Assembly (NCBI GenBank): GCA_008015505.1
Contig: SSFR01000004.1
Coordinates: 15,194 to 79,193, forward strand
Source: Pedobacter sp.
GTDB taxonomy: Bacteria > Bacteroidota > Bacteroidia > Sphingobacteriales > Sphingobacteriaceae
Reading direction: 5' to 3'
DNA length: 64,000 nucleotides
Positions 33,700 through 56,289 of this stretch are shown here, piece by piece. A model generated the notes under the pieces. It saw nothing but the letters and a program-made list of their open reading frames with translations. It did not search any database and was not told the origin of the DNA. The position numbers and the translations under genes were made by a program. The number at the start of each line of letters is the position of its first letter. Within the stretch, counting starts at the first letter, position 1.

Positions 33700-35205
33700 T
33701 TATAAACCGCCCTGTTGTTTTCGCACAAGGCTATTCCGAATGCCGTAAATAAAATAAACAAGTAAGCCTACAGCCATCCAAATTAATAATCGTTCCCAAT
33801 TATGCCTCCCCAAACCATACATCATCACCACACAAACCACAATCCCCAATATCGGCACAACAGGCATAAAAGGTGTTTTAAAAGCCCGAGGACGAGCCGG
33901 ATCAGTCTTCCGCAAAATTAACACGCCTAGACATACCAAAGCAAAGGCAAACAACGTCCCAATACTAGTCATATCACCTATCACATCTCCAGGTATAAAA
34001 GCAGCAAATAGTCCTGCCAATACCATAAATACCAGATTAGATTGATAAGGGGTTTTAAAACGGGGATGTATGGTAGAAAATAGTTTGGGGATTAAACCGT
34101 CCTTAGACATGCTAAAAAACAACCTCGACTGACCCAATAACGTCATTAAAATCACGGAAGTAAAACCAGCCAAAATAGCTACCGTAATTGATATCGATAA
34201 CCATTGATGATTGTGCATATAGGTATTTATTACATAGGTTACCGAGGCTTCTTTTCCAGCCAAATCAAACTCTTTATAATTAGCAACCCCAGTCAATACA
34301 TAACCGAAGGACACATATAATAATGTACAAATCACTAACGAACCTAGGATACCTATAGGTAGATCTCGTTTCGGATTTTTACATTCCTGCGCTGTTGTCG
34401 AAAGAGCATCAAAGCCAATAAAAGCAAAAAAAACCACTCCTGCTGCACTAACAATTCCTCCCCAGCCAAATTTGCCAAACTCACCACTAGTAATATGATC
34501 CCAAAAACTAATCTCACCATTCATTAGCTTAATCTCACTCACATTTTGAGGAATGTATGGTATATGATTAGCAGGATTAATATAGCTCCAGCCAATGGCA
34601 ACAAAAGTGATTACTATAGCTAATTTAATAACAACCATAATCATATTTAATACAACTGATTCCTTCATTCCCCGTATCAGAAGCAAAGAAATGATCGTGA
34701 TAATCAATAAAGCTGGTAAGTTCATAACCCCTTGGATACCTTCTATAGAAGTCTGAAATGGGGAATGACACCAAGTATAAGGTATCACTAAACCAAACGT
34801 TTCCAGCAGTTTATTCAAGTATTCCGACCAAGCAATGGCAACAGCAGCGGAAGCCACTCCATACTCCAAAATTAAATCCCAGCCAACTATCCATGCAAGC
34901 ACCTCCCCCATGGTAGCATACGTATAGGTATAAGCACTCCCTGCAACAGGGATCATAGAAGCAAACTCAGCATAACATAAACCGGCTAATGCACAACCCA
35001 CTGCAGCTAAAATAAATCCTAAAGTCACCGCTGGACCAGCATGATCTGCTGCCGCTACAGCAGTTCGAACAAATAAACCTGCTCCAATAATACCTCCAAC
35101 CCCCAAAGCAATCAAATTCCCCGGACCAAGGGTGCGCCTAAGTGTATGCTCTCCACTTTCTGATGCTTCCAACAAAAGAGAATCTAAGGATTTTTTGAAT
35201 TTCAT
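33700..35205 (-). CDS. APC/CAT-type amino acid permease, array copy 1
   Basis: GGIIGAGLF (TM1), CYAEFAS.IP.AGSAYTY, LEYG, FFAFIGFDA and GQSRLFFSMSKDG motifs. Confidence 0.95.
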   Translation of the reverse strand: MKFKKSLDSLLLEASESGEHTLRRTLGPGNLIALGVGGIIGAGLFVRTAVAAADHAGPAVTLGFILAAVGCALAGLCYAEFASMIPVAGSAYTYTYATMGEVLAWIVGWDLILEYGVASAAVAIAWSEYLNKLLETFGLVIPYTWCHSPFQTSIEGIQGVMNLPALLIITIISLLLIRGMKESVVLNMIMVVIKLAIVITFVAIGWSYINPANHIPYIPQNVSEIKLMNGEISFWDHITSGEFGKFGWGGIVSAAGVVFFAFIGFDALSTTAQECKNPKRDLPIGILGSLVICTLLYVSFGYVLTGVANYKEFDLAGKEASVTYVINTYMHNHQWLSISITVAILAGFTSVILMTLLGQSRLFFSMSKDGLIPKLFSTIHPRFKTPYQSNLVFMVLAGLFAAFIPGDVIGDMTSIGTLFAFALVCLGVLILRKTDPARPRAFKTPFMPVVPILGIVVCVVMMYGLGRHNWERLLIWMAVGLLVYFIYGIRNSLVRKQQGGL

Positions 35206-35446
35206 GTTATAATAAGTTTATTTTACATTAAGAACACAAACGACATAATAAGTAGATTATTTTATTTGTTGGAAAACTTGCTTTAAACAGAACGGTCGCC
35301 ACTAAAGGGATAGTTTCTCAAAATAGGCAAAAAACAAACCTTGAAGAATCAAATAGTAATTGAAGGGGGATAATACACACATAAAGCTTCCAGACCATAA
35401 CTAGTCAAAGCCCCATCATTTAACAGACTCCCTATAAATCAAATAT

Positions 35447-35478
35447 AAAAGGCCCCAGAGTAACACCGAGGCCTTTTT
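35447..35478 (-). terminator. Intrinsic terminator after permease copy 2
   Basis: aaaaggcc...ggccttttt. Confidence 0.55.
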
Positions 35479-35507
35479 AGAATAAACAAATACACTATCT
35501 ACTCACC

Positions 35508-37010
35508 CTATTGTTTAGCCTTTTTTCGGATGACACTATTCCGAATGCTATAAGAGAAATAAATTACAAAGCCTATAGCCATCCAAATAAATAATCGTTC
35601 CCAGTTATTGACTCCTAATCCAAGCATCATCGCTACACATACCACAATTCCAAGTATAGGGACTAAAGGCACAAAGGGAATCTTAAAAGAACGTGGACGA
35701 TCTGGATCCGTTTTACGAAGAATAAGCACTCCCAAGCAAACCAATGTAAAGGCAAATAAGGTACCAATACTAGTCATATCGCCCACTATATCCCCAGGTA
35801 CAAATGCAGAAAACAATCCAGCCAACAAAAGAAAAATTAAATTTGATTTATATGGGGTCTTAAAGCGAGGATGCAAATCCGAGAATATTTTAGGCACCAA
35901 GCCATCTCTTGACATACTAAAAAACAATCTTGATTGTCCCCAAAGCATCACCAATATGCCCGAAGTAAAACCAGCCAAAATAGCAACAGTCACTGCGATA
36001 GATAACCAATGATAGCCATACATATAGGTATCAATTGCATAGGCTACGGATGCTTCCTTTCCTACTGTCTCAAACTCTCTATAATTAGCTACTCCAGTAA
36101 GCACATGACCAAAAAGCACATAAAGTAACGTACAAATACCCAATGAAGCCAGTATACCAATAGGTAGATCTCGCTTAGGATTCCGACATTCTTGAGCAGT
36201 TGTTGAAATGGCATCAAATCCAATAAAAGCCATAAATACCACCCCCGCTGCACTAATTACTCCACCCCAACCAAATTTTCCAAAATTACCACTCACTAAA
36301 TGATCCCAAATACCAATTTCTCCACTCATCAGCTTTATTTCACTTTCATTTGGGGGAATATATGGCGTATGATTGATCGGATTGATGTAGCTCCATCCAA
36401 TCGCAATGAATGCTAACACCACAGCCACTTTCAAAATAACCATGAACATATTAACCCTAGCTGACTCCTGCGTCCCACGAATTAAAACCATAGTTAACAC
36501 AGCCATAATCAATAACGCCGGAAGATTAATAATTCCCTGCACACCTTCAAGTGATGTCTGGAAAGGAGAATGGCAAAATTCATAAGGAATACTCACCTCA
36601 AAGACTTCTAACAACTTATTTAAGTACTCTGACCAAGCTATAGCCACCACAGAAGCACCCAAAGCATATTCTAAAACAAGATCCCACCCAATTACCCAAG
36701 CTACAGTTTCTCCCATTGTTGCATAAGTATAGGTATAAGCGCTCCCAGAAATTGGAATCATAGAAGCAAATTCAGCATAGCATAAACCGGCTAATGCACA
36801 ACCTATCGCAGCTAGAATAAATCCTAAAGTCACCGCTGGGCCAGCATGCTCCGAAGCTGCAGCAGCCGTCCGAACAAATAAACCTGCACCAATAATGGCT
36901 CCAATTCCAAGCGCAATTAAATTCCAAGGTCCCAAGGTTCGCTTAAGTGTATGTTCCCCACCCTCCGAAGCTTCCAATAAAAGCTGATCTATAGATTTTC
37001 TAAATCTCAT
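35508..37010 (-). CDS. APC/CAT-type amino acid permease, array copy 2
   Basis: Same motifs as copy 1. ATG 37010 (MRFRKS) matches the paralog starts; -7 box at 37058-37065. Confidence 0.95.
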   Translation of the reverse strand: MRFRKSIDQLLLEASEGGEHTLKRTLGPWNLIALGIGAIIGAGLFVRTAAAASEHAGPAVTLGFILAAIGCALAGLCYAEFASMIPISGSAYTYTYATMGETVAWVIGWDLVLEYALGASVVAIAWSEYLNKLLEVFEVSIPYEFCHSPFQTSLEGVQGIINLPALLIMAVLTMVLIRGTQESARVNMFMVILKVAVVLAFIAIGWSYINPINHTPYIPPNESEIKLMSGEIGIWDHLVSGNFGKFGWGGVISAAGVVFMAFIGFDAISTTAQECRNPKRDLPIGILASLGICTLLYVLFGHVLTGVANYREFETVGKEASVAYAIDTYMYGYHWLSIAVTVAILAGFTSGILVMLWGQSRLFFSMSRDGLVPKIFSDLHPRFKTPYKSNLIFLLLAGLFSAFVPGDIVGDMTSIGTLFAFTLVCLGVLILRKTDPDRPRSFKIPFVPLVPILGIVVCVAMMLGLGVNNWERLFIWMAIGFVIYFSYSIRNSVIRKKAKQ

Positions 37011-37195
37011 ATTACCTTTCAATCGATTTTTTAATAGAATTATAATAAGCGAGCCGGCAAACTTAATATTTTACTTGAAATAAAATATTGTATTTTGATT
37101 AATAACAAAACACAAGCTTCATTCATCAATAAAAAAGTTTTATATAGCAACTCTGACTTCTTTTTTATTACACAAATGGCACAAAATTCCTACTA

Positions 37196-38698
37196 TTATT
37201 TGCGCTGCGATTTACGTATCACACTATTCCTCATCCCATAGCTCAGATAAAGCACTAAACCAATAGCAGTCCAAGAGAATAATTGTATCCAGCTGTCTCG
37301 GCCCAAACCAAGCATCATAACCACACACACAATAATTCCTAATATAGGTACAAATGGCATAAATGGTGTTTTAAAAGGACGATGACGATTCGGATCTGTT
37401 TTACGTAGAATCAGTATTCCTAAACAAACCAACGTGAAAGCAAATAGTGCTCCAATACTGGTCATCTTACCCACCACATCAACAGGAATAACTGCAGCAA
37501 CAATTCCAATGAAGGCAAGAAATATTAAGTTAGATTTATAAGGAGTCTTAAATCTAGGATGTAAATCTGAAAACACTTTTGGTATAAGCCCATCTTGGGA
37601 CATCGTATAAAATACACGAGACTGACCCAATAGCATCACTAAAATAACCGAAGTAAAACCAGCTAAAATAGCCACAGTAATCAGCATAGATAACCATTGA
37701 TAATTTTGCATATACGTTTCAATTGCATAAACTACCGATGCCTCCTGACCCACTGTTGCAAATTCTTTATAATTAGCTACTCCAGTAAGTACATGACCAA
37801 ATAAAACATACAAGATCGTACAGATAACTAATGCACCTAGTATCGCAATGGGCATATCCTTACTTGGGTTCTTAGCTTCCTGCGCAGCTGTTGAAACTGC
37901 ATCAAATCCATTGAAAGCAAAAAAGACAACCCCTGCTGCACAAACAATTCCGCCCCATCCGAACTTACCAAAATCACCACTTGTTAAATAAGCCCAAAGG
38001 TCCATTTCTCCGCTGAACACTTTAGCTTCGCCCATATTTTCTGGGATATATGGCGTATGATTCATCGGATTGATAAACGTCCATCCAATGAGGATGAATG
38101 TGATAACAATAGCTACCTTCACCACAACCATGAGATTGTTTAAGGTCACCGATTCACTAATGCCACGTACTAACAGCAAAGAAACAATCGCTACAATAGC
38201 TAAAGCTGGTAAATTGGCAATACCATGTACCCCATCGACCGAAACCTGAAAAGGTGAATGACAAAATTCATAAGGAATGATAACCCCAAATTTCTCAATG
38301 AACTTATTAAAATACTCAGACCACGAAATAGCTACTGTTGCAGCAGAAACTCCATATTCCAGCACCAAATCCCAACCAACAATCCAAGCAACAACTTCAC
38401 CCATAGTGGCATAAGTATAAGTATAAGCACTTCCCGCAACAGGAATCATAGAGGCAAACTCGGCATAACATAATCCCGCCAATGCACAACCACTAGCTGC
38501 CAAAATAAAACCAAGTGTTACAGCCGGACCCACGTTTTCAGCTGCCGCTCGCGCTGTTTGTACAAATAAACCTGCTCCAATAATGGCCCCAACGCCCAAT
38601 GTAATCAGATTCCAAAGACCCAATGTGCGCTTAAGGGTGTGCTCTCCACTTTCCGAAGCCTCCAATAGAAGGAGATCCAGGGATTTTCTAAATTTCAT
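37196..38698 (-). CDS. APC/CAT-type amino acid permease, array copy 3
   Basis: Same motifs, with variants FAFNGFD and GKMTSIGAL. -7 box TATGTTTG at 38751-38758. Confidence 0.95.
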   Translation of the reverse strand: MKFRKSLDLLLLEASESGEHTLKRTLGLWNLITLGVGAIIGAGLFVQTARAAAENVGPAVTLGFILAASGCALAGLCYAEFASMIPVAGSAYTYTYATMGEVVAWIVGWDLVLEYGVSAATVAISWSEYFNKFIEKFGVIIPYEFCHSPFQVSVDGVHGIANLPALAIVAIVSLLLVRGISESVTLNNLMVVVKVAIVITFILIGWTFINPMNHTPYIPENMGEAKVFSGEMDLWAYLTSGDFGKFGWGGIVCAAGVVFFAFNGFDAVSTAAQEAKNPSKDMPIAILGALVICTILYVLFGHVLTGVANYKEFATVGQEASVVYAIETYMQNYQWLSMLITVAILAGFTSVILVMLLGQSRVFYTMSQDGLIPKVFSDLHPRFKTPYKSNLIFLAFIGIVAAVIPVDVVGKMTSIGALFAFTLVCLGILILRKTDPNRHRPFKTPFMPFVPILGIIVCVVMMLGLGRDSWIQLFSWTAIGLVLYLSYGMRNSVIRKSQRK

Positions 38699-39130
38699 AC
38701 TGCTTTTTAGTCTGTTTGAATGATATAATTCGTTAAAATAACGTAAAAAACAAACATATACTATTATTAGTTATAATGCAAAAAATATATACACACTAAG
38801 CCCTCATTATTCCTAAGTGGAACATCATTCTACCATACTCAAAAGAATATGTCAGTTTTCGATAGATAAATAAGTTTTTTGATTTCTGGAACCCCTATTA
38901 GAAACACACACTTTATCTTAATTTACCAGAATAAAAGATTTTTATTTTTTATCAAAAATAAAACATAATTTAATTATTTTATTAATTTTTAAAAGAAAAC
39001 AATGAGGGGTATTTCTAGTCCAGTATTATAAAACCTTTTAAATAAACTTAAAAAGGATTTCCCCCATAACTAGATTCTTCTGGTACACTCAAAAACTACC
39101 AAAAAGCACTGTGGTTTTATTTATTGCAAA

Positions 39131-40639
39131 TCATTTGTCTGCAATTTGGTTTTTCCTAATAACACTATTCCTAACTCCATAAGTGAGATAAATTATCAAA
39201 CCAATACCCATCCAAATCAATAAGCGTTCCCAACTTGGCTTACCTAATCCAATCATCATGATCACACACACGATAACCCCAAAAATGGACACAAATGGCA
39301 TCAACGGTGTTTTAAAAGGACGATGACGATTCGGATCAGTGATACGCAAAATAAGTACCCCCAAACAAACCAACATAAAGGCAAATAACGTACCAATACT
39401 AGTCATATCACCTACGACATGAGCCGGTACAAACGCAGCAGACAAACCTGAAAAAGCAAGAAATATTAAATTCGATTTATATGGGGTCTTAAATCGAGGA
39501 TGTAGTACAGAAAATATTTTTGGCACAAGCCCATCCTTAGACATGGCATAAAATACCCGAGACTGCGCAAGCAATGTCACCAAAATCACTGAGGTAAATC
39601 CAGCCAAAATAGCCACAGTGATTAAAATCGAAAGCCACCGATAACCTTGCATGTAGCTTTCAATAACATAAGATACTGATGCCTCCTTACCAGCACCCGC
39701 AAATTCTCTATAATTAGCCACACCAGTTAATACGTGGCCAAAGAGAATGTACAAAACCGTGCAGATAAGTAAGGAAGCCAAAATACCAATGGGCATGTCC
39801 TTAGCCGGATTTTTGGACTCTTGAGCAACAGTAGAAACAGCATCAAAACCAAGGAAAGCAAAAAATACAATCCCCGCAGCACTAATAATACCACTCCATC
39901 CAAATTTACCAAAATCATCCCCCCTAATAAAATCCCAAAAACCAATCTTCCCCGACATTAATTTCATCTCTCCCATATTCTGAGGAATATACGGATCATA
40001 ATTTACTGGATTTACAAACCCCCACCCAATAGCAATAAATGCAATCACGATAGCTACTTTTAGAATGACCATGACACCATTTAGTGCTACAGATTGTTTA
40101 GTCCCGCGAATCAGCACTAAAGAAATCAACACAATGATAAAAAGCGCTGGAAGATTTATAATTCCCGATATCCCATCAGCTGAATTTTGAAAGGGCGAAT
40201 GACACCACACATAGGGTATCACTAAACCAAAAGTTTCAAGTAATTTATTCAGATATTCCGACCAAGCAATGGAAACAGCCGAAGCAGCTACACTGTATTC
40301 CAAAACCAAATCCCAACCAACTATCCAGGCTAGAGTTTCTCCCATAGTCGCATAGGTATAGGTATAGGCGCTCCCCGCAATAGGAATCATCGAAGCAAAC
40401 TCAGCATAGCATAGACCTGCTAATGCACATCCAATAGCTGCTAAAATAAAGCCCAAAGTCACAGCTGGCCCCGCATGTTCTGCAGCCGCTCGTGCTGTTT
40501 GCACAAACAAACCCGCCCCAATAATAGCCCCAACCCCCAGCGCAACTAAATTCCCAGGACCTAATGTACGTTTCAAGGTCTGCTCCCCACTTGTTGAAGC
40601 CTCTAGCAAAAGAACATCCAGGGGTTTTTTAAATCTCAT
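39131..40639 (-). CDS. APC/CAT-type amino acid permease, array copy 4
   Basis: Same motifs, with variants FAFLGFD and LVTLLAQSR. -7 box at 40689-40696. Confidence 0.95.
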   Translation of the reverse strand: MRFKKPLDVLLLEASTSGEQTLKRTLGPGNLVALGVGAIIGAGLFVQTARAAAEHAGPAVTLGFILAAIGCALAGLCYAEFASMIPIAGSAYTYTYATMGETLAWIVGWDLVLEYSVAASAVSIAWSEYLNKLLETFGLVIPYVWCHSPFQNSADGISGIINLPALFIIVLISLVLIRGTKQSVALNGVMVILKVAIVIAFIAIGWGFVNPVNYDPYIPQNMGEMKLMSGKIGFWDFIRGDDFGKFGWSGIISAAGIVFFAFLGFDAVSTVAQESKNPAKDMPIGILASLLICTVLYILFGHVLTGVANYREFAGAGKEASVSYVIESYMQGYRWLSILITVAILAGFTSVILVTLLAQSRVFYAMSKDGLVPKIFSVLHPRFKTPYKSNLIFLAFSGLSAAFVPAHVVGDMTSIGTLFAFMLVCLGVLILRITDPNRHRPFKTPLMPFVSIFGVIVCVIMMIGLGKPSWERLLIWMGIGLIIYLTYGVRNSVIRKNQIADK

Positions 40640-40781
40640 ATTTCTTCAATCCGTTTTTACATCTATCCTTATTAGGAAACACAAACGGCAAACTTATATT
40701 ATTTTATCCAGATAATTGATGAAAAAATGGAGAGATCGTAAGAATTTTAGCTCAAAAAAGGGTTATATCATTTCTGATCAC

Positions 40782-40927
40782 AAGCCTTCCTGAGGTTTAT
40801 TTTATGAAACTATTACCAGTTATTTTCTACCGAGATGAGGCAGATTCTGAAAACGTAACGGGGGCAGCTATGATAAAAAACCTAACGGAGTTGCAACAAA
40901 AAAATAAAATAAACTTTAGACCGGCCC
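40782..40927. mobile_element. MITE copy 4, degenerate
   Basis: gtttattttatgaaactatt..gagatgaggcagatt..ctaacggagttgca..aaataaactttagaccggccc followed by TTA; the left end is eroded. Confidence 0.7.
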
Positions 40928-40938
40928 TTAGCCAAAGA

Positions 40939-40976
40939 TTCCCCTTATTTGAGATGGTCACCTCAAATAAGGGGAA
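40939..40976. terminator. Perfect 15-bp hairpin, likely the terminator of the OYE gene
   Basis: ttccccttatttgag-atggtcac-ctcaaataaggggaa. Confidence 0.7.
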
Positions 40977-41021
40977 ATGAAAGTATAAACTCAAAAGCGT
41001 TATACGTTATAAAAGACTCGA

Positions 41022-42143
41022 CTACCTAACCAAAAGTTCTTTTTCAGTATCAAAACAAGGGTAATCCGTATATCCTTGTTCAGCTCCCCCATAGAATGTA
41101 CTTCTATCTGGTTGAGCTAATGGCCAATGATGCTTCAATCTTTCAGGTAAATCTGGATTAGCAATAAATGGCTCCCCAAAAGCAGCAAGATCTATATTTC
41201 CTTCTACTAATAATTCTTCGGACTTTTCACGGTCTAATCCTCCAGCTAAAATAATAATACCCGAATACCACGACCGAAAACGTGCTAAAAAGCCTTCTGG
41301 AAGTGCATAACTACCTCTTGATTTCTGGTCCATAATATGAATATAAGCGATATTACGCTTAGCTAATTCCTGAGTAAGATAATAATAGAGTGGTTCGATC
41401 TCCTCATAATGCGGGGAGTCATGAAGACCTCCATAAGGTGACAAACGAACTGCAACTCGCTCATAACCAATTTTTTCAGCACAAGTATCAACGGTCTCTA
41501 AAAGAAAACGACAGCGATTTTCAATAGTTCCTCCGTACTGATCCACTCGATTATTGATGAACGGATTTAAGAACTGTTCAATTAAATAGCCATTGGCACC
41601 ATGTAGTTCTATACCATCAAAACCTGCTTTTATCGCATTAGATGAAGCTTGGGCAAAATCCACTTCTACCTGCTTAATCTCCTGGCTAGACAAAGGCCGC
41701 GGCTGTGAACAACTGACAAAGTTTTCATTGCCATCTTCATCATAACCCCAAGAAAAAGAGGTAACAGCTCGTATATCAGAAGGTCCAACTGGAAGCTGCC
41801 TGTTAGGCTGATTAGAAACATGAGAAATACGCCCTACATGCCAAAGTTGAGCAAAAACCATACTTCCTTCCCCATGAATGGCTTGTGTTACTAATTTCCA
41901 ACCCTCTGTTTGCTCTGCCGTATGAAGCCCTGGAATACGCAATACACCCACAGAAGTTTCAGAAATAGCCGCTCCTTCCGTGATGATTAGCCCAGCCCCC
42001 GAACGCTGGCGATAATACTCCGCATTCATTGAAGTGGGGACCCCTTTGTCTGGATTTCTAGCACGAGTCATGGGCGCCATGACAATCCTATTTTTTAACT
42101 GAAGAGATTGTTTCTTAAATGGTTCAAATAGCATATGAGTCAA
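41022..42143 (-). CDS. Old yellow enzyme / alkene reductase (NemA-like NADH:flavin oxidoreductase)
   Basis: KNRIVMAPMTRAR, QLWHVGRISH, GFDGIELHGANGYL and NPDLP motifs. Confidence 0.93.
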   Translation of the reverse strand: MTHMLFEPFKKQSLQLKNRIVMAPMTRARNPDKGVPTSMNAEYYRQRSGAGLIITEGAAISETSVGVLRIPGLHTAEQTEGWKLVTQAIHGEGSMVFAQLWHVGRISHVSNQPNRQLPVGPSDIRAVTSFSWGYDEDGNENFVSCSQPRPLSSQEIKQVEVDFAQASSNAIKAGFDGIELHGANGYLIEQFLNPFINNRVDQYGGTIENRCRFLLETVDTCAEKIGYERVAVRLSPYGGLHDSPHYEEIEPLYYYLTQELAKRNIAYIHIMDQKSRGSYALPEGFLARFRSWYSGIIILAGGLDREKSEELLVEGNIDLAAFGEPFIANPDLPERLKHHWPLAQPDRSTFYGGAEQGYTDYPCFDTEKELLVR

Positions 42144-42254
42144 TTAAAGGTTAAAAAACAACTGATATATTTTTAAATAGTTACCAAACTCACAACGCTG
42201 TATCTATTTATAAAGTATCACCTATATCAAAAAATGACTCATTAATGAAATATT

Positions 42255-43781
42255 CTAGCTTGATTTTAAATTGCCCTCTTGCTGCGCCGCTTTACGTATG
42301 ACACTATGTTTAATACTATAAGTAAAATAAATAATCAGACCAATGATCATCCAAATAATTAATCGTTCCCAGTTATGCCTACCTAATCCGAGCATCATTG
42401 TCAAGCAGACCACTATTCCGAGAATAGGTACAAAAGGCATAAAAGGTGTTTTGAATGGACGATGACGTCCCGGATCTGTTTTACGTAGAATAAGCACCCC
42501 TAAACATACCAAAGCAAAGGCAAAAAGCGTACCAATACTGGTCATATCACCCACCACATCCCCGGGAACAAAGGAGGAAAATATACCAGCGAAGAGAAAA
42601 AATATCAAATTGGACCGATAAGGTGTTCGATATTTAGGATGCAAATCAGAAAATGCTTTGGGAATCAGACCATCTTTTGACATGCTAAAAAATACCCGAG
42701 ACTGACCCAACAACAATACCAATATAACCGAAGTAAAACCAGCCAAGATCGCCACACTAACCAATGTGGCTAGCCAATGATAACCATGCATGTAAGTATC
42801 TATCGCATAAACTACGGATGCCTCCTTTCCCACTGTTTCAAACTCTTTATAACTGGCAACCCCAGTTAATACGTGTCCAAAAAGCACGTACAAGACTGTA
42901 CAAATACCCAAAGACACGAGCATCCCAATGGGTAAATCCCTCTTAGGGTCTTTAGCCTCTTGGGCTGCTGTTGAAACGGCATCAAATCCAATAAAAGCAA
43001 AAAACACCACACCTGCAGCACTAATAACCCCACTCCATCCAAACTTCCCAAACCAGCCACTCGAGATATAATCCCAAAAGCCAATCTCCCCACTAATTAG
43101 CTTTTTTTCGCCCAGATTCTCAGGAATATATGGCATATGATTAGCAGGATTGATAAACCCCCACCCAATAGCAATAAATGCAATAACAATGGCTACTTTG
43201 AGAATAACCATGATATCGTTTACTGTTGCCGACTCCTCAATTCCTCGTATCAAAATCAAAGAAACCACTCCAATAATCAATAAAGCAGGAATATTAATCA
43301 GCCCGTGTTCTCCATGAATTGACATTTGAAAAGGCGAATGACACCAGGCATAGGGAATAGTTATACCAAAAGTTTCGAGCAACTTATTCAAATACTCCGA
43401 CCAGGCAATAGAAACTGTGGCAGCTCCCAATGCATACTCTAAAACTAAGTCCCAACCAATGATCCAAGCAAGGGTCTCACCCATAGTTGCATAAGTATAG
43501 GTATAAGCACTCCCTGCAATGGGAATCATCGAAGCGAATTCTGCATAACATAGCCCAGCTAATGCACAACCTATTGCGGCCAAAATAAAACCAAACGTAA
43601 CAGCTGGACCTGCATGATCTGCCGCTGCAGCAGCTGTTCGAACAAATAATCCCGCCCCAATGATTGCCCCAATACCCAGTGCAATTAAGTTTCCAGGGCC
43701 TAAAGTACGTTTAAGCGTATCCTCCCCAGCTTCTGAGGCCTCTATCAATAAACGATCCATAGATTTCTTAAATCTCATCAT
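42255..43781 (-). CDS. APC/CAT-type amino acid permease, array copy 5
   Basis: Same motifs; only 63 bp downstream of copy 6. Confidence 0.95.
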   Translation of the reverse strand: MMRFKKSMDRLLIEASEAGEDTLKRTLGPGNLIALGIGAIIGAGLFVRTAAAAADHAGPAVTFGFILAAIGCALAGLCYAEFASMIPIAGSAYTYTYATMGETLAWIIGWDLVLEYALGAATVSIAWSEYLNKLLETFGITIPYAWCHSPFQMSIHGEHGLINIPALLIIGVVSLILIRGIEESATVNDIMVILKVAIVIAFIAIGWGFINPANHMPYIPENLGEKKLISGEIGFWDYISSGWFGKFGWSGVISAAGVVFFAFIGFDAVSTAAQEAKDPKRDLPIGMLVSLGICTVLYVLFGHVLTGVASYKEFETVGKEASVVYAIDTYMHGYHWLATLVSVAILAGFTSVILVLLLGQSRVFFSMSKDGLIPKAFSDLHPKYRTPYRSNLIFFLFAGIFSSFVPGDVVGDMTSIGTLFAFALVCLGVLILRKTDPGRHRPFKTPFMPFVPILGIVVCLTMMLGLGRHNWERLIIWMIIGLIIYFTYSIKHSVIRKAAQQEGNLKSS

Positions 43782-43844
43782 ACCAAATGATTAATACTCA
43801 TCTAAATCAGCTAGTTTCTAGTCATTATTGATACTATTCAATTA

Positions 43845-45353
43845 TCAAGCTTCTTTAAGCTTCTTTCGCACGATACTATTTTTTACACTATAAGAAAAGT
43901 AAATGATTAAACCTATTGCCATCCAAACAAACAAACGTTCCCAATTGTGCTTTCCTAGTCCAAGCATCATCGTTACACACACTAGCATACCTAATATGGG
44001 TACTACAGGCATAAAAGGAGTTTTAAATGGACGATGACGATGTGGATCAGTTTTACGCAAAACCAAGATTCCCAGACACACAAGTGAAAACGCAAATAAA
44101 GTACCTATACTCGTCATGTCGCCCACCACATCCCCCGGTATAAAAGCAGCAAAAGCACCAACGAACACAAGAAATATATAATTCGACTTATAAGGAGTCT
44201 TAAACTTAGGATGTAAAGCTGAAAATGTTTTGGGTATTAATCCATCTTTTGACATACTAAAAAACACCCTCGATTGTCCTAATAACATTACCAATATAAC
44301 CGAAGTAAAACCAGCCAAAATAGCCACTGTCACTAACGTAGATAACCATGGATATCCATGCATATAAGTAGCAATTACATAAGCTACTGAAGCCTCTTTA
44401 CCTGGCCCTGAAAATTCTTCATAATTAGCCACTCCTGTTAATACATGGCCAAAAAGCACGTACAAGACTGTACAAATACCTAAAGACACGAGCATCCCAA
44501 TGGGCATATCTTTTTTGGGATTTTTAGATTCCTGTGCAGCAGTTGAAACGGCATCAAAACCAATGAAGGCAAAAAACACAACCCCTGCTGCACTAATAAT
44601 TCCACTCCAACCAAACTTTCCAAACCAGCCACTCGAGATATAATCCCAAAAGCCAACCTCACCATTTATTAGCTTTTCTTCACCCAGATTCTCAGGAATA
44701 TATGGCATATGATTCGATGGATTCATATACTTCCAACCGATGGCAATAAAGGCAACAACAATAGCAACCTTTACAATAACCATCAGATTATTTAATGTAG
44801 CGGACTCTTCAATCCCACGAACTAAAACTAAAGTGATCATTACAATGATCAATAGGGCTGGAAGATTGATTAGTCCAGCCACCCCATCTGCTGAAACTTG
44901 GAGGGGAGAATGACAATATTGATACGGAATATGAATACCGAAAGAAGACCCAAGTAATCGATTAAGATATTCTGACCAAGCAATAGAAACTGTGGCAGCT
45001 CCCAAGGCATATTCTAAAACTAAATCCCATCCAATTACCCAAGCAACCACCTCTCCCATGGTTGCATAAGAATAAGTATAGGCACTACCAGCAATGGGAA
45101 TCATCGAAGCAAACTCAGCATAGCATAAGCCCGCTAATGCACACCCAATTGCTGCCAACACAAAGCCCAAAGTAACCGCCGGACCAGCATGTTCTGCTGC
45201 CGCTGCTGCTGTTCGAACAAATAACCCAGCCCCAATAATGGCCCCAACCCCCAAGGCAACTAAATTTCCAGGGCCTAAAGTACGCTTGAGTGTATGCTCC
45301 CCACTCTCAGATGCTTCTAAAAGAAGGTGGTCTAAAGATTTTTTAAATTTCAT
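43845..45353 (-). CDS. APC/CAT-type amino acid permease, array copy 6
   Basis: Same motifs; most similar to copy 5. Confidence 0.95.
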   Translation of the reverse strand: MKFKKSLDHLLLEASESGEHTLKRTLGPGNLVALGVGAIIGAGLFVRTAAAAAEHAGPAVTLGFVLAAIGCALAGLCYAEFASMIPIAGSAYTYSYATMGEVVAWVIGWDLVLEYALGAATVSIAWSEYLNRLLGSSFGIHIPYQYCHSPLQVSADGVAGLINLPALLIIVMITLVLVRGIEESATLNNLMVIVKVAIVVAFIAIGWKYMNPSNHMPYIPENLGEEKLINGEVGFWDYISSGWFGKFGWSGIISAAGVVFFAFIGFDAVSTAAQESKNPKKDMPIGMLVSLGICTVLYVLFGHVLTGVANYEEFSGPGKEASVAYVIATYMHGYPWLSTLVTVAILAGFTSVILVMLLGQSRVFFSMSKDGLIPKTFSALHPKFKTPYKSNYIFLVFVGAFAAFIPGDVVGDMTSIGTLFAFSLVCLGILVLRKTDPHRHRPFKTPFMPVVPILGMLVCVTMMLGLGKHNWERLFVWMAIGLIIYFSYSVKNSIVRKKLKEA

Positions 45354-48040: not shown

Positions 48041-49456
48041 ATGGATGAAGTTTTAGAAGAAGGTAAAATGAAACGAGAGGTAAGTCTATTAGACGCCGTT
48101 TCACTCGTTGCAGGAAGTATGATTGGTTCTGGTATTTTTATTGTGTCAGCTGATATTACAAGGCACGTTGGGTCTGCTGGTTGGTTACTTGGTATTTGGG
48201 CAATTACGGGTATCATGACTTTAATCGCAGCCATAAGTTATGGTGAACTAGGAGCGATGTTCCCCAAAGCAGGTGGACAGTATCTTTTTTTAAAAGAAGC
48301 TTATAGCGATTTTGTTGGTTTTTTATATGGATGGAGCTTCTTTGCGGTCATTCAAACAGGATCCATTGCAGCAGTGGGTGTTGCTTTTTCAAAATTCACC
48401 TCATACCTTATTCCCCAAATCAATGAAGAAATGATCCTCATTGCCCTTGGACCATTACAACTATCATCTGCTCAACTTCTTGCTTTAGCAATAATTGTCT
48501 TACTCACATACGTTAATACAAGAGGTGTGAAAGAAGGTAAATCTGTTCAAACCTTCCTCACCGTGATCAAAATAGCTTGCTTACTTGGGATTATTGTTTT
48601 TGGTCTCTGGGCATTAAAGCCAGAGATATGGACTAGCAACTGGCAAAATGCCTGGCCCATGCGTAAAATGAATATTGATGGCTCTTTTGAATCGTACACA
48701 ATGGTTGCTGCATTGGGTGCCATTGCAGCTGCAATGGTTGGCTCTGTTTTCAGTTCCGACTCTTGGCACGCTGCAACAGCGGTCGCTGGAGAAATTAAGA
48801 ATCCGCAGCGCAATGTCGGTTTAAGCTTATTCATTGGCGCTTTAACAGTGATTATTATTTATATCATCATCAATATTGTTTATTTAGGCGTATTACCACT
48901 AAACGAAATTGCTTTTGCAAAAAATGATCGCGTTGGCGTTGCTGCGGCAGATATCATATTTGGAACCACAGGCACCTCTATTATTGCCGCTATGATTATG
49001 ATTTCTTGTTTTGGTTGTGCTAACGGTCTAATTCTAGCAGGCCCAAGGGTATATTATACGATGGCAAAGGATGGACTATTTTTTGAAAAGGTAGCTCATC
49101 TCAACAAAAATGGTGTTCCTTCATTTGGTTTATGGGTACAGTGTTTAGTTGCCTGTGCACTCTGCCTAAGTGGAAGATATGGTGACCTATTAGATATGGT
49201 TTGTTTCGTTGTCGTACTGTTCTATATATTAAATATATTGGGTATTTATAGACTACGAATTACACGACCAAATGCACCCAGACCATACAAGGCATTTGGA
49301 TATCCTATTTTACCGGCCATTTATGTTTTATTAGCCTCGGCTTTCTGCATTTTATTGGTTTTTTACAAACCCAATTACACCTGGCCAGGCCTACTTATTG
49401 TTTTGACAGGAGTGCCCATTTACTTGCTCTGGAAACGTAAATTAGCCGCACATTAA
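48041..49456 (+). CDS. APC amino acid permease of a different (LAT/SteT-like) subfamily
   Basis: GSMIGSGIF, YGELGAMFPKAGGQY, GEIKNPQRN and GPRVYYTMAKDG motifs. Confidence 0.92.
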   Translation: MDEVLEEGKMKREVSLLDAVSLVAGSMIGSGIFIVSADITRHVGSAGWLLGIWAITGIMTLIAAISYGELGAMFPKAGGQYLFLKEAYSDFVGFLYGWSFFAVIQTGSIAAVGVAFSKFTSYLIPQINEEMILIALGPLQLSSAQLLALAIIVLLTYVNTRGVKEGKSVQTFLTVIKIACLLGIIVFGLWALKPEIWTSNWQNAWPMRKMNIDGSFESYTMVAALGAIAAAMVGSVFSSDSWHAATAVAGEIKNPQRNVGLSLFIGALTVIIIYIIINIVYLGVLPLNEIAFAKNDRVGVAAADIIFGTTGTSIIAAMIMISCFGCANGLILAGPRVYYTMAKDGLFFEKVAHLNKNGVPSFGLWVQCLVACALCLSGRYGDLLDMVCFVVVLFYILNILGIYRLRITRPNAPRPYKAFGYPILPAIYVLLASAFCILLVFYKPNYTWPGLLIVLTGVPIYLLWKRKLAAH

Positions 49457-54749: not shown

Positions 54750-55673
54750 ATGAAACCTACTTTACTTATTTTGGCTGCAGGGATGGCTAGTCGCTATGGG
54801 AGCATGAAACAGATTGACGCCTTTGGACCAAAAGGCGAAACCATTATTGATTATTCCATTTACGATGCCATCAAAGCAGGTTTTGGCAAAGTGGTATTTA
54901 TCATTCGTGAAGAATTTGCCAGTGATTTCAAATCAATCTTTGAGCCCAAACTAAAAGGTAAAATTAAAACTGACTATGTTTTTCAATCATTTGATCTGAA
55001 GCCTTTTGGAATTGAACAAATAATCGAAAGACAGAAGCCGTGGGGAACTGCACATGCTGTACTAGCGGCCCGAAATGCAATCAAAGAACCTTTCTGTGTA
55101 ATTAATGCCGATGATTTCTATGGAAATGATGCCTATCAGAAGATGCATCATTTCCTCACTCAGGAAGTAAGCGACACCCATTTTTCCATGATCGGTTACC
55201 AAATAGACAAGACTCTTTCCGAGCATGGGTCTGTTTCACGTGGAGTATGTACCACCAGTGCCAACGGGCATCTTACAAGCATACATGAACGAACCAAAGT
55301 GTATTGGAAAAAGGACAAAATTTTCTACGAAGAAGATAGCAGAGAATTTCCCCTAGATCCACACACACGCGTCTCAATGAACTTTTGGGGCTTCACTCCC
55401 AGAATATTTGATCTGTCGATGAACTTGTTCAAAGAATTCGCATTGGCTAATGCCACCAATCCTAAATCGGAATTCTTTATCACCTCACTCTCTGATACAA
55501 TCATCAAAAATGAGTTGGCTTCTTTCAAAGTCATACCCACCCCCAATCGATGGTTTGGTGTAACCTATAAAGAAGATAAACCCATTGTGCAGGCAAATAT
55601 TAATAAATTGATAGAAGAAGGAGTGTACCCCAAGAACCTTTGGGGTATTGAACATCCGAGTATCCTATCTTAA
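54750..55673 (+). CDS. Sugar-phosphate nucleotidyltransferase
   Basis: LILAAGMASRYG, KPWGTAHA, VINADDFYG and WFGVTYKED motifs. ATG 54750 is preferred. Confidence 0.88.
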   Translation: MKPTLLILAAGMASRYGSMKQIDAFGPKGETIIDYSIYDAIKAGFGKVVFIIREEFASDFKSIFEPKLKGKIKTDYVFQSFDLKPFGIEQIIERQKPWGTAHAVLAARNAIKEPFCVINADDFYGNDAYQKMHHFLTQEVSDTHFSMIGYQIDKTLSEHGSVSRGVCTTSANGHLTSIHERTKVYWKKDKIFYEEDSREFPLDPHTRVSMNFWGFTPRIFDLSMNLFKEFALANATNPKSEFFITSLSDTIIKNELASFKVIPTPNRWFGVTYKEDKPIVQANINKLIEEGVYPKNLWGIEHPSILS

Positions 55674-55708
55674 ACCAAAAGAGAAGGCCACATAGAAAGA
55701 AATGAGAA

Positions 55709-55735
55709 ATGGGTAGTGCACTGCCCATCTTTTTT
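55709..55735 (+). terminator. Probable intrinsic terminator
   Basis: atgggtag-tgca-ctgcccat followed by a T tract. Confidence 0.6.
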
Positions 55736-55746
55736 GATGTTGATTA

Positions 55747-55965
55747 TCAACAATTTCTATATTTTATTACACTGCCATTGAGTACACATGTTACTACACC
55801 CACCACTGACATAAGATTCCGTTGGTTTGTTAGGATGTGTTTAATTATCCACTTATAAAAATCATGAAGAATTCCTCCATTCACTTGATTCATTTGATTT
55901 CCACTTAGCGTTACAACTACTTCCTTATTTAAGGAAAGCTTTTTTGAAAATTTTATCTTTTTCAT
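55747..55965 (-). CDS. RiPP precursor peptide (Bacteroidota class I lanthipeptide-like / double-glycine leader)
   Basis: Leader MKKIKFSKKLSLNKEVVVTLSGNQMNQVNGG has LxLxKx5L and L(-12)/M(-7)/V(-4)/GG. The 41-aa core contains Ser/Thr and 2 Cys. Confidence 0.8.
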   Translation of the reverse strand: MKKIKFSKKLSLNKEVVVTLSGNQMNQVNGGILHDFYKWIIKHILTNQRNLMSVVGVVTCVLNGSVIKYRNC

Positions 55966-56262
55966 AATTATTTCTATTTTTTACTTATAGATTTATATTA
56001 AAAATTGATTAAATAAACATTTTTATTATCGGATTATTTCAAAACACATAGCAATAATAAAACCGATATTTCGCATTATAGATATTTTAAATCAATTAAA
56101 TGCAAATTATTTTTAAATAACATTTTTAAATACAATAATAATTTATTAAAATAATAAATCAACTAGAATTTAAATTATTTCAACAATTCAAACTCACATA
56201 GATTAAAGTTAATTTACACCCAAGCTTTAAGTGGGAAAACATCAGCTAATCTCTTTCAAACT

Positions 56263-56289
56263 AAAAAGGCCCGCATCAAGCGAGCCTTT
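56263..56289 (-). terminator. Intrinsic terminator of dnaK
   Basis: Minus strand reads aaaggctcgc-ttgat-gcgggccttttt. Confidence 0.7.

What the first reader, a model, noticed from the sequence alone, without database searches (positions are those of the whole stretch)
55747..55965. Orphan RiPP precursor with a lanthipeptide-type, double-Gly leader and an atypical amphipathic core
Seen: the leader contains LSLNKEVVVTL (LxLxKx5L) and hydrophobic residues at -12/-7/-4 before GG. The 41-aa core is ILHDFYKWIIKHILTNQRNLMSVVGVVTCVLNGSVIKYRNC, with 4 Ser/Thr-type sites before or between 2 Cys plus an amphipathic N-terminal helix. No LanB, LanC, radical SAM or peptidase-ABC transporter gene lies nearby: it sits alone between a nucleotidyltransferase and dnaK. 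Known: LxLxKx5L leaders mark Bacteroidota class I lanthipeptide precursors such as pinensin-like ones. Inference: either a trans-processed precursor for a distant cluster, or an unmodified or disulfide bacteriocin/signal peptide exported by a PCAT. The core does not resemble one I recognise.
Basis: partly seen in the sequence, partly recalled or inferred. Interest (0 to 1): 0.7.

Follow-up and report, generated by a model that had tools for sequence, protein, structure and literature searches.

The report
Frameshifted orphan lanthipeptide precursor gene

Summary
The 72-codon ORF at 55747-55965(-) exists, and its first 31 residues are a genuine Bacteroidota class I lanthipeptide leader (NCBIfam NF038153, 45.6 bits against a cutoff of 22; LxLxKx5L; GG with hydrophobic -4/-7/-12).

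The "atypical core" is not native. Conspecific strains (99.4-99.7% identical flanks, same dnaK/NTP-transferase neighbours, at least 37 contigs) carry 10 more bases (AAACATAATG, one unit of an imperfect tandem decamer). They encode ...IIKH-NETHPNKPTESYVSGGCSNMCTQWQCNKI. The window and two other assemblies lack those 10 bases, so residues 44-72 are read out of frame. The ancestral core is still readable at 55757-55840 in the other frame.

That core is conserved (24/28 residues, with synonymous changes) in a homologue inside a complete LanC-LanA-LanB-C39 transporter-HlyD cluster from another contig set.

The 64-kb window holds only housekeeping genes. Related genera have a spacer of at most about 140 bp here and no leader-like ORF at this locus, so the gene plus its 18%-GC promoter is a lineage-specific insertion. 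About 200 nt of that promoter is 70-73% identical to the promoter of a precursor gene in the full cluster.

Two metatranscriptomes contain a discrete contig of the deleted allele. Whether the genome has LanB/LanC elsewhere remains untested. The kind is already known; interest is low to moderate.

The parts
55747..55965 (-). 72-codon ORF: frameshifted allele (P0001) of an orphan class I lanthipeptide precursor gene (lanA-like)
   Evidence: The ORF is listed. The 10-bp deletion relative to seven conspecific loci is shown.
55873..55965 (-). Leader peptide, aa 1-31: MKKIKFSKKLSLNKEVVVTLSGNQMNQVNGG. It has LxLxKx5L, a GG cleavage site, and hydrophobic residues at -4/-7/-12.
   Evidence: Translation. 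HMM match to aa 1-31. Leader alignment with P0003-P0024.
55837..55872 (-). Native N-terminal part of the core (aa 32-43, ILHDFYKWIIKH). It is shared with the intact allele, is moderately amphipathic, and is not conserved in the P0147 homologue.
55838..55847 (-). The single remaining decamer unit (TAATTAAACA in gene orientation). The intact allele has two imperfect units, TAATTAAACA and TAATGAAACA. The deletion junction lies here; because of the shared AAACA, its exact position is ambiguous within about 5 nt.
   Evidence: DNA alignment A1. The insertion is reported at 55837 in the intact-allele runs.
55747..55836 (-). Out-of-frame tail (aa 44-72, ILTNQRNLMSVVGVVTCVLNGSVIKYRNC, plus stop). This is not a native peptide sequence.
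   Evidence: It has no homologue other than the same allele.
55757..55840 (-). Ancestral core reading frame, intact but no longer in phase with the start codon: THPNKPTESYVSGGCSNMCTQWQCNKI*
   Evidence: Translation. Identical to P0002. 24/28 residues conserved with P0147, with 5 synonymous codon changes.
55709..55728 (.). GC-rich palindromic hairpin with T-runs on both sides. It is a likely bidirectional terminator shared by the convergent NTP-transferase gene and the peptide gene.
   Evidence: Terminator scan. Palindrome I3.
55966..56268 (-). Very AT-rich (18% GC) upstream region of the peptide gene. The stretch 55874-56161 (about 200 nt upstream plus the leader) is 70-73% identical to the upstream region plus leader of lanA1 in a complete lanthipeptide cluster (L099/L101).
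   Evidence: GC content. blastn. Alignment A4.
56269..56281 (-). Terminator-like hairpin of dnaK. It marks the far edge of the inserted module.

Best explanation
The ORF is a naturally occurring null (frameshift) allele of an orphan class I lanthipeptide precursor gene.

Ancestral gene. It is still intact in most strains of this wastewater/freshwater Sphingobacteriaceae species. It encodes an L1a-type leader ending in GG, a 13-residue variable spacer, and a conserved C-terminal core, ETHPNKPTESYVSGGCSNMCTQWQCNKI.

Inferred maturation of the intact form (not shown):
- A LanB dehydratase recognises the leader and dehydrates Ser/Thr.
- LanC closes three consecutive thioether rings. The likely pairs are S57-C60, S61-C64 and T65-C69.
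- A C39-peptidase ABC transporter cuts after GG and exports the peptide.
- This is the machinery found next to the homologue P0147.

This window's lineage. One unit of an imperfect tandem decamer (10 bp) was lost, most simply by replication slippage. Translation after His43 therefore runs out of frame for 29 codons to a downstream stop. The product keeps the leader but lacks the conserved ring-forming core, so it cannot give the native lanthipeptide.

Genomic setting. The gene and its AT-rich promoter form a roughly 0.6-kb single-gene module inserted between dnaK and an NTP-transferase gene. The module is still transcribed. No modification or export genes lie within at least 55 kb on one side and at least 18 kb on the other.
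For: Shown:
1. Leader family membership: NF038153 at 45.6 bits against a cutoff of 22.
2. P0002 is identical for aa 1-43 and then differs. In the DNA alignment, the window, L009 and L010 lack exactly AAACATAATG and are otherwise 100% identical over 310 nt to seven intact loci.
3. The native core is readable in the other frame at 55757-55840.
4. The intact frame is the selected one. P0147, from a different contig set, shares 24/28 C-terminal core residues with 5 synonymous codon changes, including AGT<->TCT Ser. It aligns without a gap at the decamer site, so the deletion is the derived state.
5. P0147 lies in lanA1 - esterase - ABC2 - LanC - lanA2 - LanB(1053 aa) - C39 PCAT - HlyD-like. Other leader relatives (P0011, P0015) also sit beside LanC-LanB-PCAT.
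6. The deletion is real and marks a sublineage. It is present in the window, in two DNA runs from different studies (2018 wastewater at 11.5x; 2024 freshwater at 24x) and in two metatranscriptomes. Deletion-allele loci are 99.93-99.96% identical to the window, against 99.35-99.73% for intact-allele loci. Ten other DNA runs examined carry the intact allele.
7. Orphan status: all 64 kb are housekeeping genes.
8. Insertion: in relatives where the NTP-transferase gene abuts dnaK, the spacer is at most about 140 bp. No leader-like ORF occurs in any of 80 related loci.
9. Transcription: discrete contigs at 55648-55991 (X25) and 55650-55913 (X30), with zero depth over the neighbouring NTP-transferase gene.

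Inferred: the ring pattern, the slippage mechanism, and loss of function of the product.
Against: - No peptide-level data exist. Translation of either allele is unproven.
- The RNA evidence comes from low-depth, unstranded contigs.
- Loss of function is inferred from loss of the conserved core. A leader-bearing peptide with 4 Ser/Thr and 2 Cys could in principle still be bound, and even modified, by a promiscuous LanB/LanC.
- Whether the genome encodes LanB/LanC/PCAT at all could not be tested. The native function of even the intact allele is therefore inferred from homologues only.
Confidence: 0.88

Rival explanations
1. One reading: the 72-aa product as written is a functional, novel precursor. 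It would be either trans-processed by a distant cluster, or an unmodified or disulfide bacteriocin or signal exported by a PCAT, with an atypical amphipathic core.
For: - The ORF is open and has a bona fide leader.
- It is transcribed.
- The tail happens to contain 4 Ser/Thr and 2 Cys.
- The allele has persisted in samples from 2018 and 2024.
Against: - The tail is produced by a 10-bp deletion within a >99.3%-identical population.
- It has no homologue beyond the same allele, whereas the alternative frame is conserved across lineages with synonymous substitutions.
- No PCAT, immunity or modification gene lies in 64 kb.
Confidence: 0.04
2. The intact allele in sister strains is an active remote substrate of a LanB/LanC/PCAT cluster encoded elsewhere in the same genome, in the way prochlorosin precursors are scattered away from ProcM. 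On this view the window's allele is a recent knockout of an otherwise working system.
For: - The intact allele is the majority form and is sequence-identical in seven assemblies.
- The core is conserved with P0147, with synonymous changes.
- About 200 nt of promoter is 70-73% identical to the lanA1 promoter of a complete cluster. This suggests retained, possibly shared, regulation.
- The gene is transcribed.
- The P0147 cluster contigs have similar composition (38% GC; tetranucleotide r=0.95-0.96).
Against: - No LanB homologue among the best 120 of 196 hits carries the annotated MAG's organism name. No second L1a-leader precursor does either.
- The P0147 cluster proteins have no accession from the annotated MAG that carries P0002.
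- P0147 occurs mostly in other sample series and only on contigs under 17 kb.
- The frameshift lineage persists across years and habitats.
- All of these are indirect and of limited sensitivity.
Confidence: 0.4
3. The whole locus is a relic. A single lanA with its promoter was acquired without its enzymes, has no cognate machinery in this genome, and is drifting. The frameshift in this lineage would be the first visible step of decay.
For: - It is a lineage-specific insertion, absent from 80 related loci.
- No machinery lies in 64 kb.
- No attributable LanB or second precursor appears in database searches.
- Within-species variants seen in the protein clusters are a frameshift and two non-synonymous changes, I32T and T52P.
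Against: - The intact allele still dominates, in 10 of 12 DNA runs examined.
- The promoter remains conserved and active.
- Absence of machinery in the rest of the genome was not tested directly.
Confidence: 0.45
4. The decamer copy number acts as a reversible ON/OFF (phase-variation) switch for peptide production.
For: - The indel is exactly one unit of a tandem decamer.
- Both states exist in natural populations.
Against: - There are only two imperfect units. Once one is lost, no repeat remains to slip back.
- Deletion-allele genomes cluster together by flanking SNPs, which points to a single event rather than recurrent switching.
- No run showed both states in its contigs, although contigs hide minor variants.
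Confidence: 0.04
5. The 10-bp gap is a sequencing or assembly error in the window.
For: The site is a short tandem repeat in AT-rich DNA.
Against: The same gap occurs in three independent assemblies and four runs from two studies, including RNA-derived contigs, at 5-24x depth.
Confidence: 0.02

Closest known systems
Bacteroidota class I lanthipeptide precursors with the L1a leader (NCBIfam NF038153 / Pfam PF28317; the LxLxKx5L...GG group of Walker et al. 2020, PMC7268733)
   Same: - The leader scores well above the family cutoff.
- It has the LxLxKx5L motif and GG with hydrophobic -4/-7/-12.
- NCBI already names the intact allele 'class I lanthipeptide'.
- Relatives P0011, P0015 and P0147 sit next to LanC, LanB and a C39 ABC transporter.
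   Different: This copy stands alone between housekeeping genes. In this window its core is also frameshifted, so the ring-forming Ser/Thr-Cys segment is not translated in phase.
P0147/P0010 precursor (lanA2) of an uncharacterised metagenomic cluster: lanA1 - esterase - ABC2 - LanC - lanA2 - LanB - PCAT - HlyD (loci L099-L108)
   Same: - The C-terminal core is homologous: ETH.N.PTESYVSGGCSNMCTQW.CNK., 24/28 identical to the intact allele.
- Overall length is the same (72 aa).
- About 20 nt of 3' flank is homologous.
- The window's promoter plus leader resembles that of lanA1 in the same cluster.
   Different: - The leader is only 19/31 identical, and the 13 residues after GG are unrelated (2/13).
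- P0147 is embedded in a full biosynthetic cluster.
- It is found mostly in other samples and probably belongs to another organism.
Pinensins (Chitinophaga pinensis) and Ped15.1/15.2 (Pedobacter lusitanus NL19), the characterised Bacteroidota class I lanthipeptides (cited in PMC7268733 and PMC9680876)
   Same: They come from the same phylum, the same lanthipeptide class, the same leader logic (for the Bacteroidota class I group as a whole: PMC7268733) and, for Pedobacter, the same bacterial family.
   Different: - The cores were not compared here, because no sequences were at hand.
- No bioactivity or structure is known for this core family.
- Those peptides are encoded in clusters.
Prochlorosin/cyanotin-type remote precursors (class II; precursors scattered far from LanM; PMC7268733)
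   Same: The concept is the same: a precursor gene located far from its modifying enzyme, recognised through a conserved leader.
   Different: - The class differs (LanM, Nif11 leader), as does the phylum.
- Here the existence of any cognate enzyme in the genome is unproven.

Membership tests
Class I lanthipeptide precursor, L1a leader type (NF038153 / PF28317) | Leader region matches the family HMM above the curated cutoff | tested here: met
   45.6 bits against a cutoff of 22, E=5.8e-12, over aa 1-31. The intact allele scores 45.4 bits.
Class I lanthipeptide precursor, L1a leader type (NF038153 / PF28317) | LxLxKx5L motif and a double-Gly cleavage site with hydrophobic residues at -4, -7 and -12 | tested here: met
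   The motif is LSLNKEVVVTL. V28, M25 and L20 lie before G30-G31. The motif is described in PMC7268733.
Class I lanthipeptide precursor, L1a leader type (NF038153 / PF28317) | Core peptide with Ser/Thr and Cys positioned for (methyl)lanthionine rings and conserved among homologues | tested here: not met
   The window allele reads out of frame after His43, and its tail has no homologues. The feature is met only by the intact allele P0002 and by the out-of-phase remnant at 55757-55840.
Class I lanthipeptide biosynthetic gene cluster | LanB dehydratase and LanC cyclase, usually with a C39 PCAT, encoded within a few genes of the precursor | tested here: not met
   Pfam scans of all large ORFs in the 64 kb, plus the called genes in L001-L010, show only housekeeping genes.
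Class I lanthipeptide (mature product) | Dehydrated Ser/Thr and thioether rings in the expressed peptide | not testable with these tools
   This needs mass spectrometry or heterologous co-expression.
Trans-encoded (remote) precursor of a cluster elsewhere in the same genome | A cognate LanB/LanC/PCAT present elsewhere in the same genome | tested here: inconclusive
   The species is absent from the genome collection. The LanB homologue search lists no hit named for the MAG among the best 120. The P0147 cluster proteins carry no accession from the annotated MAG. The whole genome could not be scanned.
Unmodified class II (double-glycine leader) bacteriocin or peptide pheromone | GG-leader peptide with an adjacent PCAT, accessory protein and immunity gene or two-component system | tested here: not met
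   A GG leader is present, but no PCAT, HlyD-type, immunity or histidine kinase/response regulator genes lie nearby. The leader belongs to a lanthipeptide-specific HMM.
TIGR04149 GG_sam_targ_CFB (rSAM-modified GG-leader peptides of Bacteroidota) | HMM match above the cutoff and an adjacent rSAM/SPASM maturase | tested here: not met
   The window peptide gives no hit. Relatives score 14.9-18.6 bits against a cutoff of 25. The only radical SAM genes in the window are MqnC/CofH-like and HemN-like.
Frameshifted (pseudogene) allele | An indel whose length is not a multiple of three relative to conspecific and outgroup homologues. The ancestral frame is conserved and the new frame is unsupported. 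| tested here: met
   The 10-bp deletion is shown. The outgroup P0147 is ungapped at the site. The ancestral frame is 24/28 conserved with synonymous changes. The ancestral frame is still readable.

The most novel reading that the evidence does not exclude
The intact allele is a working 'satellite' precursor. On this reading, a single lanA with a portable, conserved promoter module has been transplanted next to dnaK, and it is matured in trans by a cluster elsewhere in the genome or by enzymes of a neighbouring organism's type. This would show that Bacteroidota class I systems can use remote precursors as cyanobacterial prochlorosin systems do. Natural knock-out lineages such as this window would then offer a ready-made comparison.
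Probability: 0.2. Interest if true: 0.55.

Novelty: new member of a known kind. Interest (0 to 1): 0.28.

Why it matters
**For annotation.** This is a cautionary case. An open 72-codon ORF with a perfect RiPP leader can still be a broken gene. A core that looks 'novel' should be checked against conspecific alleles before it is synthesised or mined.

**For biology.** The result defines a small, uncharacterised lanthipeptide core family (PTESYVSGGCSNMCTQWxCNK). One member sits in a complete cluster that could be expressed heterologously.

**For the orphan copy.** It documents a single-gene lanA-plus-promoter module inserted into a housekeeping locus of an abundant wastewater Sphingobacteriaceae species. 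Intact and null alleles coexist in nature. This is a modest but usable system for asking whether orphan precursors are functional or decaying.

Tried and rejected
1. **An apparent third allele (decamer units swapped, premature stop after KWIMKHN).** It was inferred and then rejected. In some searches, every contig laid on the + strand is reported as 'ins TGTTTAATTA + 55843 A>C'. Every contig laid on the - strand is reported as 'ins TGTTTCATTA'. This is the same intact sequence with a strand-dependent gap placement. The 44-aa product is also absent from the protein collection.
2. **Scans with the leader alignment.** Scans of genome contigs and metagenome contigs found no confirmed relatives. 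The patterns were too specific or were swamped by chance hits.
3. **Looking for the species in the GTDB representatives.** The best NTP-transferase match is only 76% identical, so the genome could not be scanned for LanB/LanC.
5. **Looking for a LanB of the window organism by homology search.**
   - The query was the LanB N-terminal region next to P0010.
   - No hit among the best 120 carries the MAG's organism name.
   - Two hits were checked for genomic context: P0025 (the best hit) and P0045 (NCBI source, 115-kb contig). They belong to other assemblies.
   - P0028 was not on record.
6. **P0004 context.** The contig is too short upstream to say whether that precursor is clustered.
7. **Sigma-70 promoter scan of the upstream region.** Hits are at chance level (6 found against 5.3 expected). 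Bacteroidota promoters are not covered by that tool.
8. **Bothwell et al. 2021 (PMC9845027).** The paper is not held, so Ped15 cores could not be compared.

Full report

The ORF at 55747-55965 on the minus strand is present.

Its N-terminal 31 residues match NCBIfam NF038153 (lant_leader_L1a, 'class I lanthipeptide') at 45.6 bits against a curated cutoff of 22, E=5.8e-12. The protein database tags the peptide with Pfam PF28317 Lant_leader_dom.

LSLNKEVVVTL fits the LxLxKx5L motif. Counting back from G31 as -1, V28, M25 and L20 occupy -4, -7 and -12. Walker et al. 2020 (PMC7268733) describe this combination for Bacteroidetes class I LanAs: LxLxKx5L, a GG end, and often a C39 protease in the cluster. 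The leader observation and the 'known' statement are therefore confirmed, and the signal is far above chance.

**2. The core is a frameshift product.**

A homology search returned P0002, also 72 aa and named by NCBI 'MAG: class I lanthipeptide [Sphingobacteriaceae bacterium]'. It has been seen on 37 contigs of up to 588 kb. It is identical to the window peptide for residues 1-43 and then reads NETHPNKPTESYVSGGCSNMCTQWQCNKI.

P0002 lies in exactly the same place in every contig, between dnaK and the NTP-transferase gene. A DNA alignment compared the window with two loci carrying the window's allele (L009, L010) and seven P0002 loci. All are 100% identical over about 310 nt, except that the window-type sequences lack ten bases, AAACATAATG.

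The site is an imperfect tandem decamer (TAATTAAACA TAATGAAACA in gene orientation), and the window retains one unit. Residues 44-72 of the window ORF (ILTNQRNLMSVVGVVTCVLNGSVIKYRNC) are therefore an out-of-frame reading. By coincidence the shifted frame stops 10 nt later, so both products are 72 aa. The native C-terminus is still encoded, out of phase, at 55757-55840.

**3. Which frame is the real one, and which state is ancestral?**

A profile search with four leaders found P0010/P0147: MKKMKFQKRLSLNKEIITKLNDEQMNQLRGG-VHLMHHKTISPND-ETHRNTPTESYVSGGCSNMCTQWKCNKV.

Comparing P0002 with P0147 codon by codon:

| Segment | Residues identical | Codon changes |
|---|---|---|
| Leader (aa 1-31) | 19/31 | 6 synonymous, 12 non-synonymous |
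| Spacer after GG (aa 32-44) | 2/13 | 1 synonymous, 11 non-synonymous |
| C-terminal core (aa 45-72) | 24/28 | 5 synonymous (including AGT<->TCT Ser), 4 non-synonymous |

- The pattern in the C-terminal core is the signature of purifying selection on the P0002 frame.
- P0147 aligns without a gap at the decamer site, so the 10-bp deletion is the derived state.
- The frameshifted tail has no homologue other than the same allele.

**4. Is the deletion real, and how common is it?**

Deletion-allele loci are 99.93-99.96% identical to the window over 8-11 kb. Intact-allele loci are 99.35-99.73% identical. This indicates one species, with the deletion marking a sublineage.

- Two DNA runs from different studies hold the deletion allele: wastewater 2018 at 11.5x depth and freshwater 2024 at 24x.
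- Ten other DNA runs examined hold the intact allele.
- An assembly error is therefore very unlikely.

I briefly inferred a third allele with a premature stop. I withdraw it. The two ways the insertion is reported correlate perfectly with the strand on which each contig was laid (8 of 8 against 6 of 6). They describe the same intact sequence.

**5. Surroundings.**

Pfam scans of all large ORFs and the called genes of the conspecific loci show only housekeeping functions across the 64 kb. Examples include:

- HtrA, DapF and an OPT transporter
- TIM and PrmA
- an MqnC/CofH-like and a HemN-like radical SAM enzyme
- Pgk, Dxs, RibF and TruB
- six tandem amino-acid permeases
- H+-PPase, an M61 peptidase, a carboxyltransferase and an M42 peptidase
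- the NTP-transferase, DnaK, and the rpoA/ribosomal protein operon

There is no LanB, LanC, PCAT, HlyD-type protein, immunity ABC transporter or two-component system. The 'orphan' observation holds for at least 55 kb on one side and at least 18 kb on the other.

**6. Origin of the locus.**

The species is not in the genome collection. The closest NTP-transferase homologues are 75-76% identical, in Sphingobacteriaceae/Sphingobacteriales MAGs.

- In relatives where this gene abuts dnaK (L013, L033, L034, L036), the spacer is at most about 140 bp.
- None of 80 related loci has a leader-like ORF there.
- In the window the spacer is 648 bp. It contains the 219-bp gene (30.6% GC) and about 300 bp of 18% GC upstream DNA, against 38.9% GC for the window as a whole.
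- Window 55874-56161 (about 200 nt upstream plus the leader) is 70-73% identical to the upstream region plus leader of a second precursor, lanA1. That 65-aa peptide scores 56 bits against NF038153 and lies at the head of the P0147 cluster.
- About 20 nt past the stop codon is also homologous to the P0147 gene.

The locus therefore looks like a single-gene module (promoter, lanA and a short 3' flank) derived from a cluster of the P0147 type and inserted between two convergent housekeeping genes. A GC-rich palindrome at 55709-55728 can serve as a bidirectional terminator.

**7. What the family normally looks like.**

- P0147 sits in lanA1 - erythromycin-esterase-like - ABC2 membrane - LanC (406 aa) - lanA2 - LanB (1053 aa, N- and C-terminal domains) - C39 PCAT (725 aa) - HlyD/LcnD-like (427 aa).
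- P0011 and P0015, which have closely related leaders, also sit directly beside LanC, LanB and a PCAT.
- A further LanC plus split-LanB cluster (L098) has its own L1a precursor.
- Clustered organisation is the norm, and the window's arrangement is the exception.

**8. Is there machinery elsewhere in this genome?**

This could not be tested directly. The indirect evidence leans negative but is weak.

- A homology search used the LanB N-terminal region adjacent to P0010. None of its best 120 hits carries the MAG's organism name.
- The two hits checked for genomic context, P0025 (the best hit) and P0045 (on a long NCBI contig), belong to other assemblies.
- The only L1a-leader peptide carrying the MAG's name is P0002 itself.
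- The proteins of the P0147 cluster have no accession from the annotated MAG, whereas P0002 has MFN8405920.1.
- P0147 occurs mainly in other sample series, and never on contigs longer than 17 kb. This suggests a different, rarer organism, even though its GC content (38%) and tetranucleotide usage (r=0.95-0.96) resemble the window's.

**9. Expression.**

Two metatranscriptomes come from the same study as one deletion-allele DNA run. They contain discrete contigs covering 55648-55991 (depth 4.7) and 55650-55913 (depth 2.9), both with the deletion. The whole neighbouring NTP-transferase gene and the AT-rich spacer have zero depth, and dnaK is covered in patches. That pattern argues for RNA rather than contaminating DNA.

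Four other 'metatranscriptomic' runs give multi-kb, evenly covered contigs and are uninformative. The broken allele is thus still transcribed. Strand and exact transcript ends cannot be read from contigs.

**10. Mechanism.**

*Shown:*
- leader family membership
- the 10-bp deletion and the resulting frameshift
- conservation of the ancestral frame
- orphan position
- lineage-specific insertion
- promoter homology
- transcription

*Inferred for the intact allele:*
- LanB binds the L1a leader and dehydrates Ser/Thr.
- LanC forms three consecutive C-terminal rings, most simply S57-C60 (SGGC), S61-C64 (SNMC) and T65-C69 (TQWQC).
- A C39 PCAT cleaves after G31 and exports the peptide.
- The variable 13 residues after GG may be trimmed or may form an N-terminal tail.

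*Inferred for the window allele:*
- Translation yields the leader, 12 native residues and 29 non-native residues.
- The conserved ring region is lost, so no native lanthipeptide can be made.
- Loss of one decamer unit by replication slippage is the simplest cause. With only one unit left, it is effectively irreversible.

**11. Comparison and novelty.**

The kind is known. NCBI's pipeline already names the intact allele a class I lanthipeptide, and the leader type is described in the literature. The specific core family (PTESYVSGGCSNMCTQWxCNK) is uncharacterised, with no NCBIfam hit for the core alone.

What is mildly unusual is the solitary lanA-plus-promoter module in a housekeeping locus, and the coexistence of intact and null alleles in nature.

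I rate this as a new member of a known kind, with interest about 0.28.

Noticed in passing
window 33700-45353 (-), and 48041-49456 (+): Six tandem APC-family amino-acid permease paralogues of 500-508 aa, 71-80% identical to one another. The run is interrupted only by an Oxidored_FMN gene at 41022-42143. A seventh, distant AA_permease (22-25% identity) lies nearby. This is an unusually large local expansion of one transporter family.
   Followed up: partly
window 25380-27260 (-): An Nramp metal transporter fused to a C-terminal universal stress protein (Usp) domain, 626 aa.
   Followed up: no
L101:353-550 (+), also the starts of L099 and L102-L108: A second precursor (lanA1, 65 aa, GTG start, core HSNFCYTWACNVRSNQCGHGGNWTDFGCWTKRGC) heads the P0147 cluster and was not called as a gene. 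Most contigs of that cluster end within 0.2-0.9 kb of it. This suggests that the AT-rich promoter/leader region is repeated in that genome.
   Followed up: partly
L104:3507-6669 and L106:3087-4308: In some samples the reference cluster's LanB is split (872 + 197 aa) or its LanC is split (128 + 281 aa). These could be frameshifts or assembly errors in the biosynthetic genes of the P0147 organism.
   Followed up: no
L109:4411-6638 (GCA_965192765.1): A related LanC / split-LanB / PCAT cluster has an adjacent histidine kinase and a LytTR response regulator. This hints that such clusters are peptide-regulated, which may be relevant to the conserved AT-rich promoter.
   Followed up: no
window 55995-56115: An imperfect 34-nt direct repeat (74% identity), spaced 87 nt apart, lies in the 18%-GC upstream region together with several AT-rich inverted repeats. 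It could be a regulator binding site or simply low-complexity sequence.
   Followed up: no
window 55650-55823 in run X20: In one activated-sludge run the contig breaks at 55795-55823, just beside the indel site. This could reflect mixed variants in that sample.
   Followed up: no
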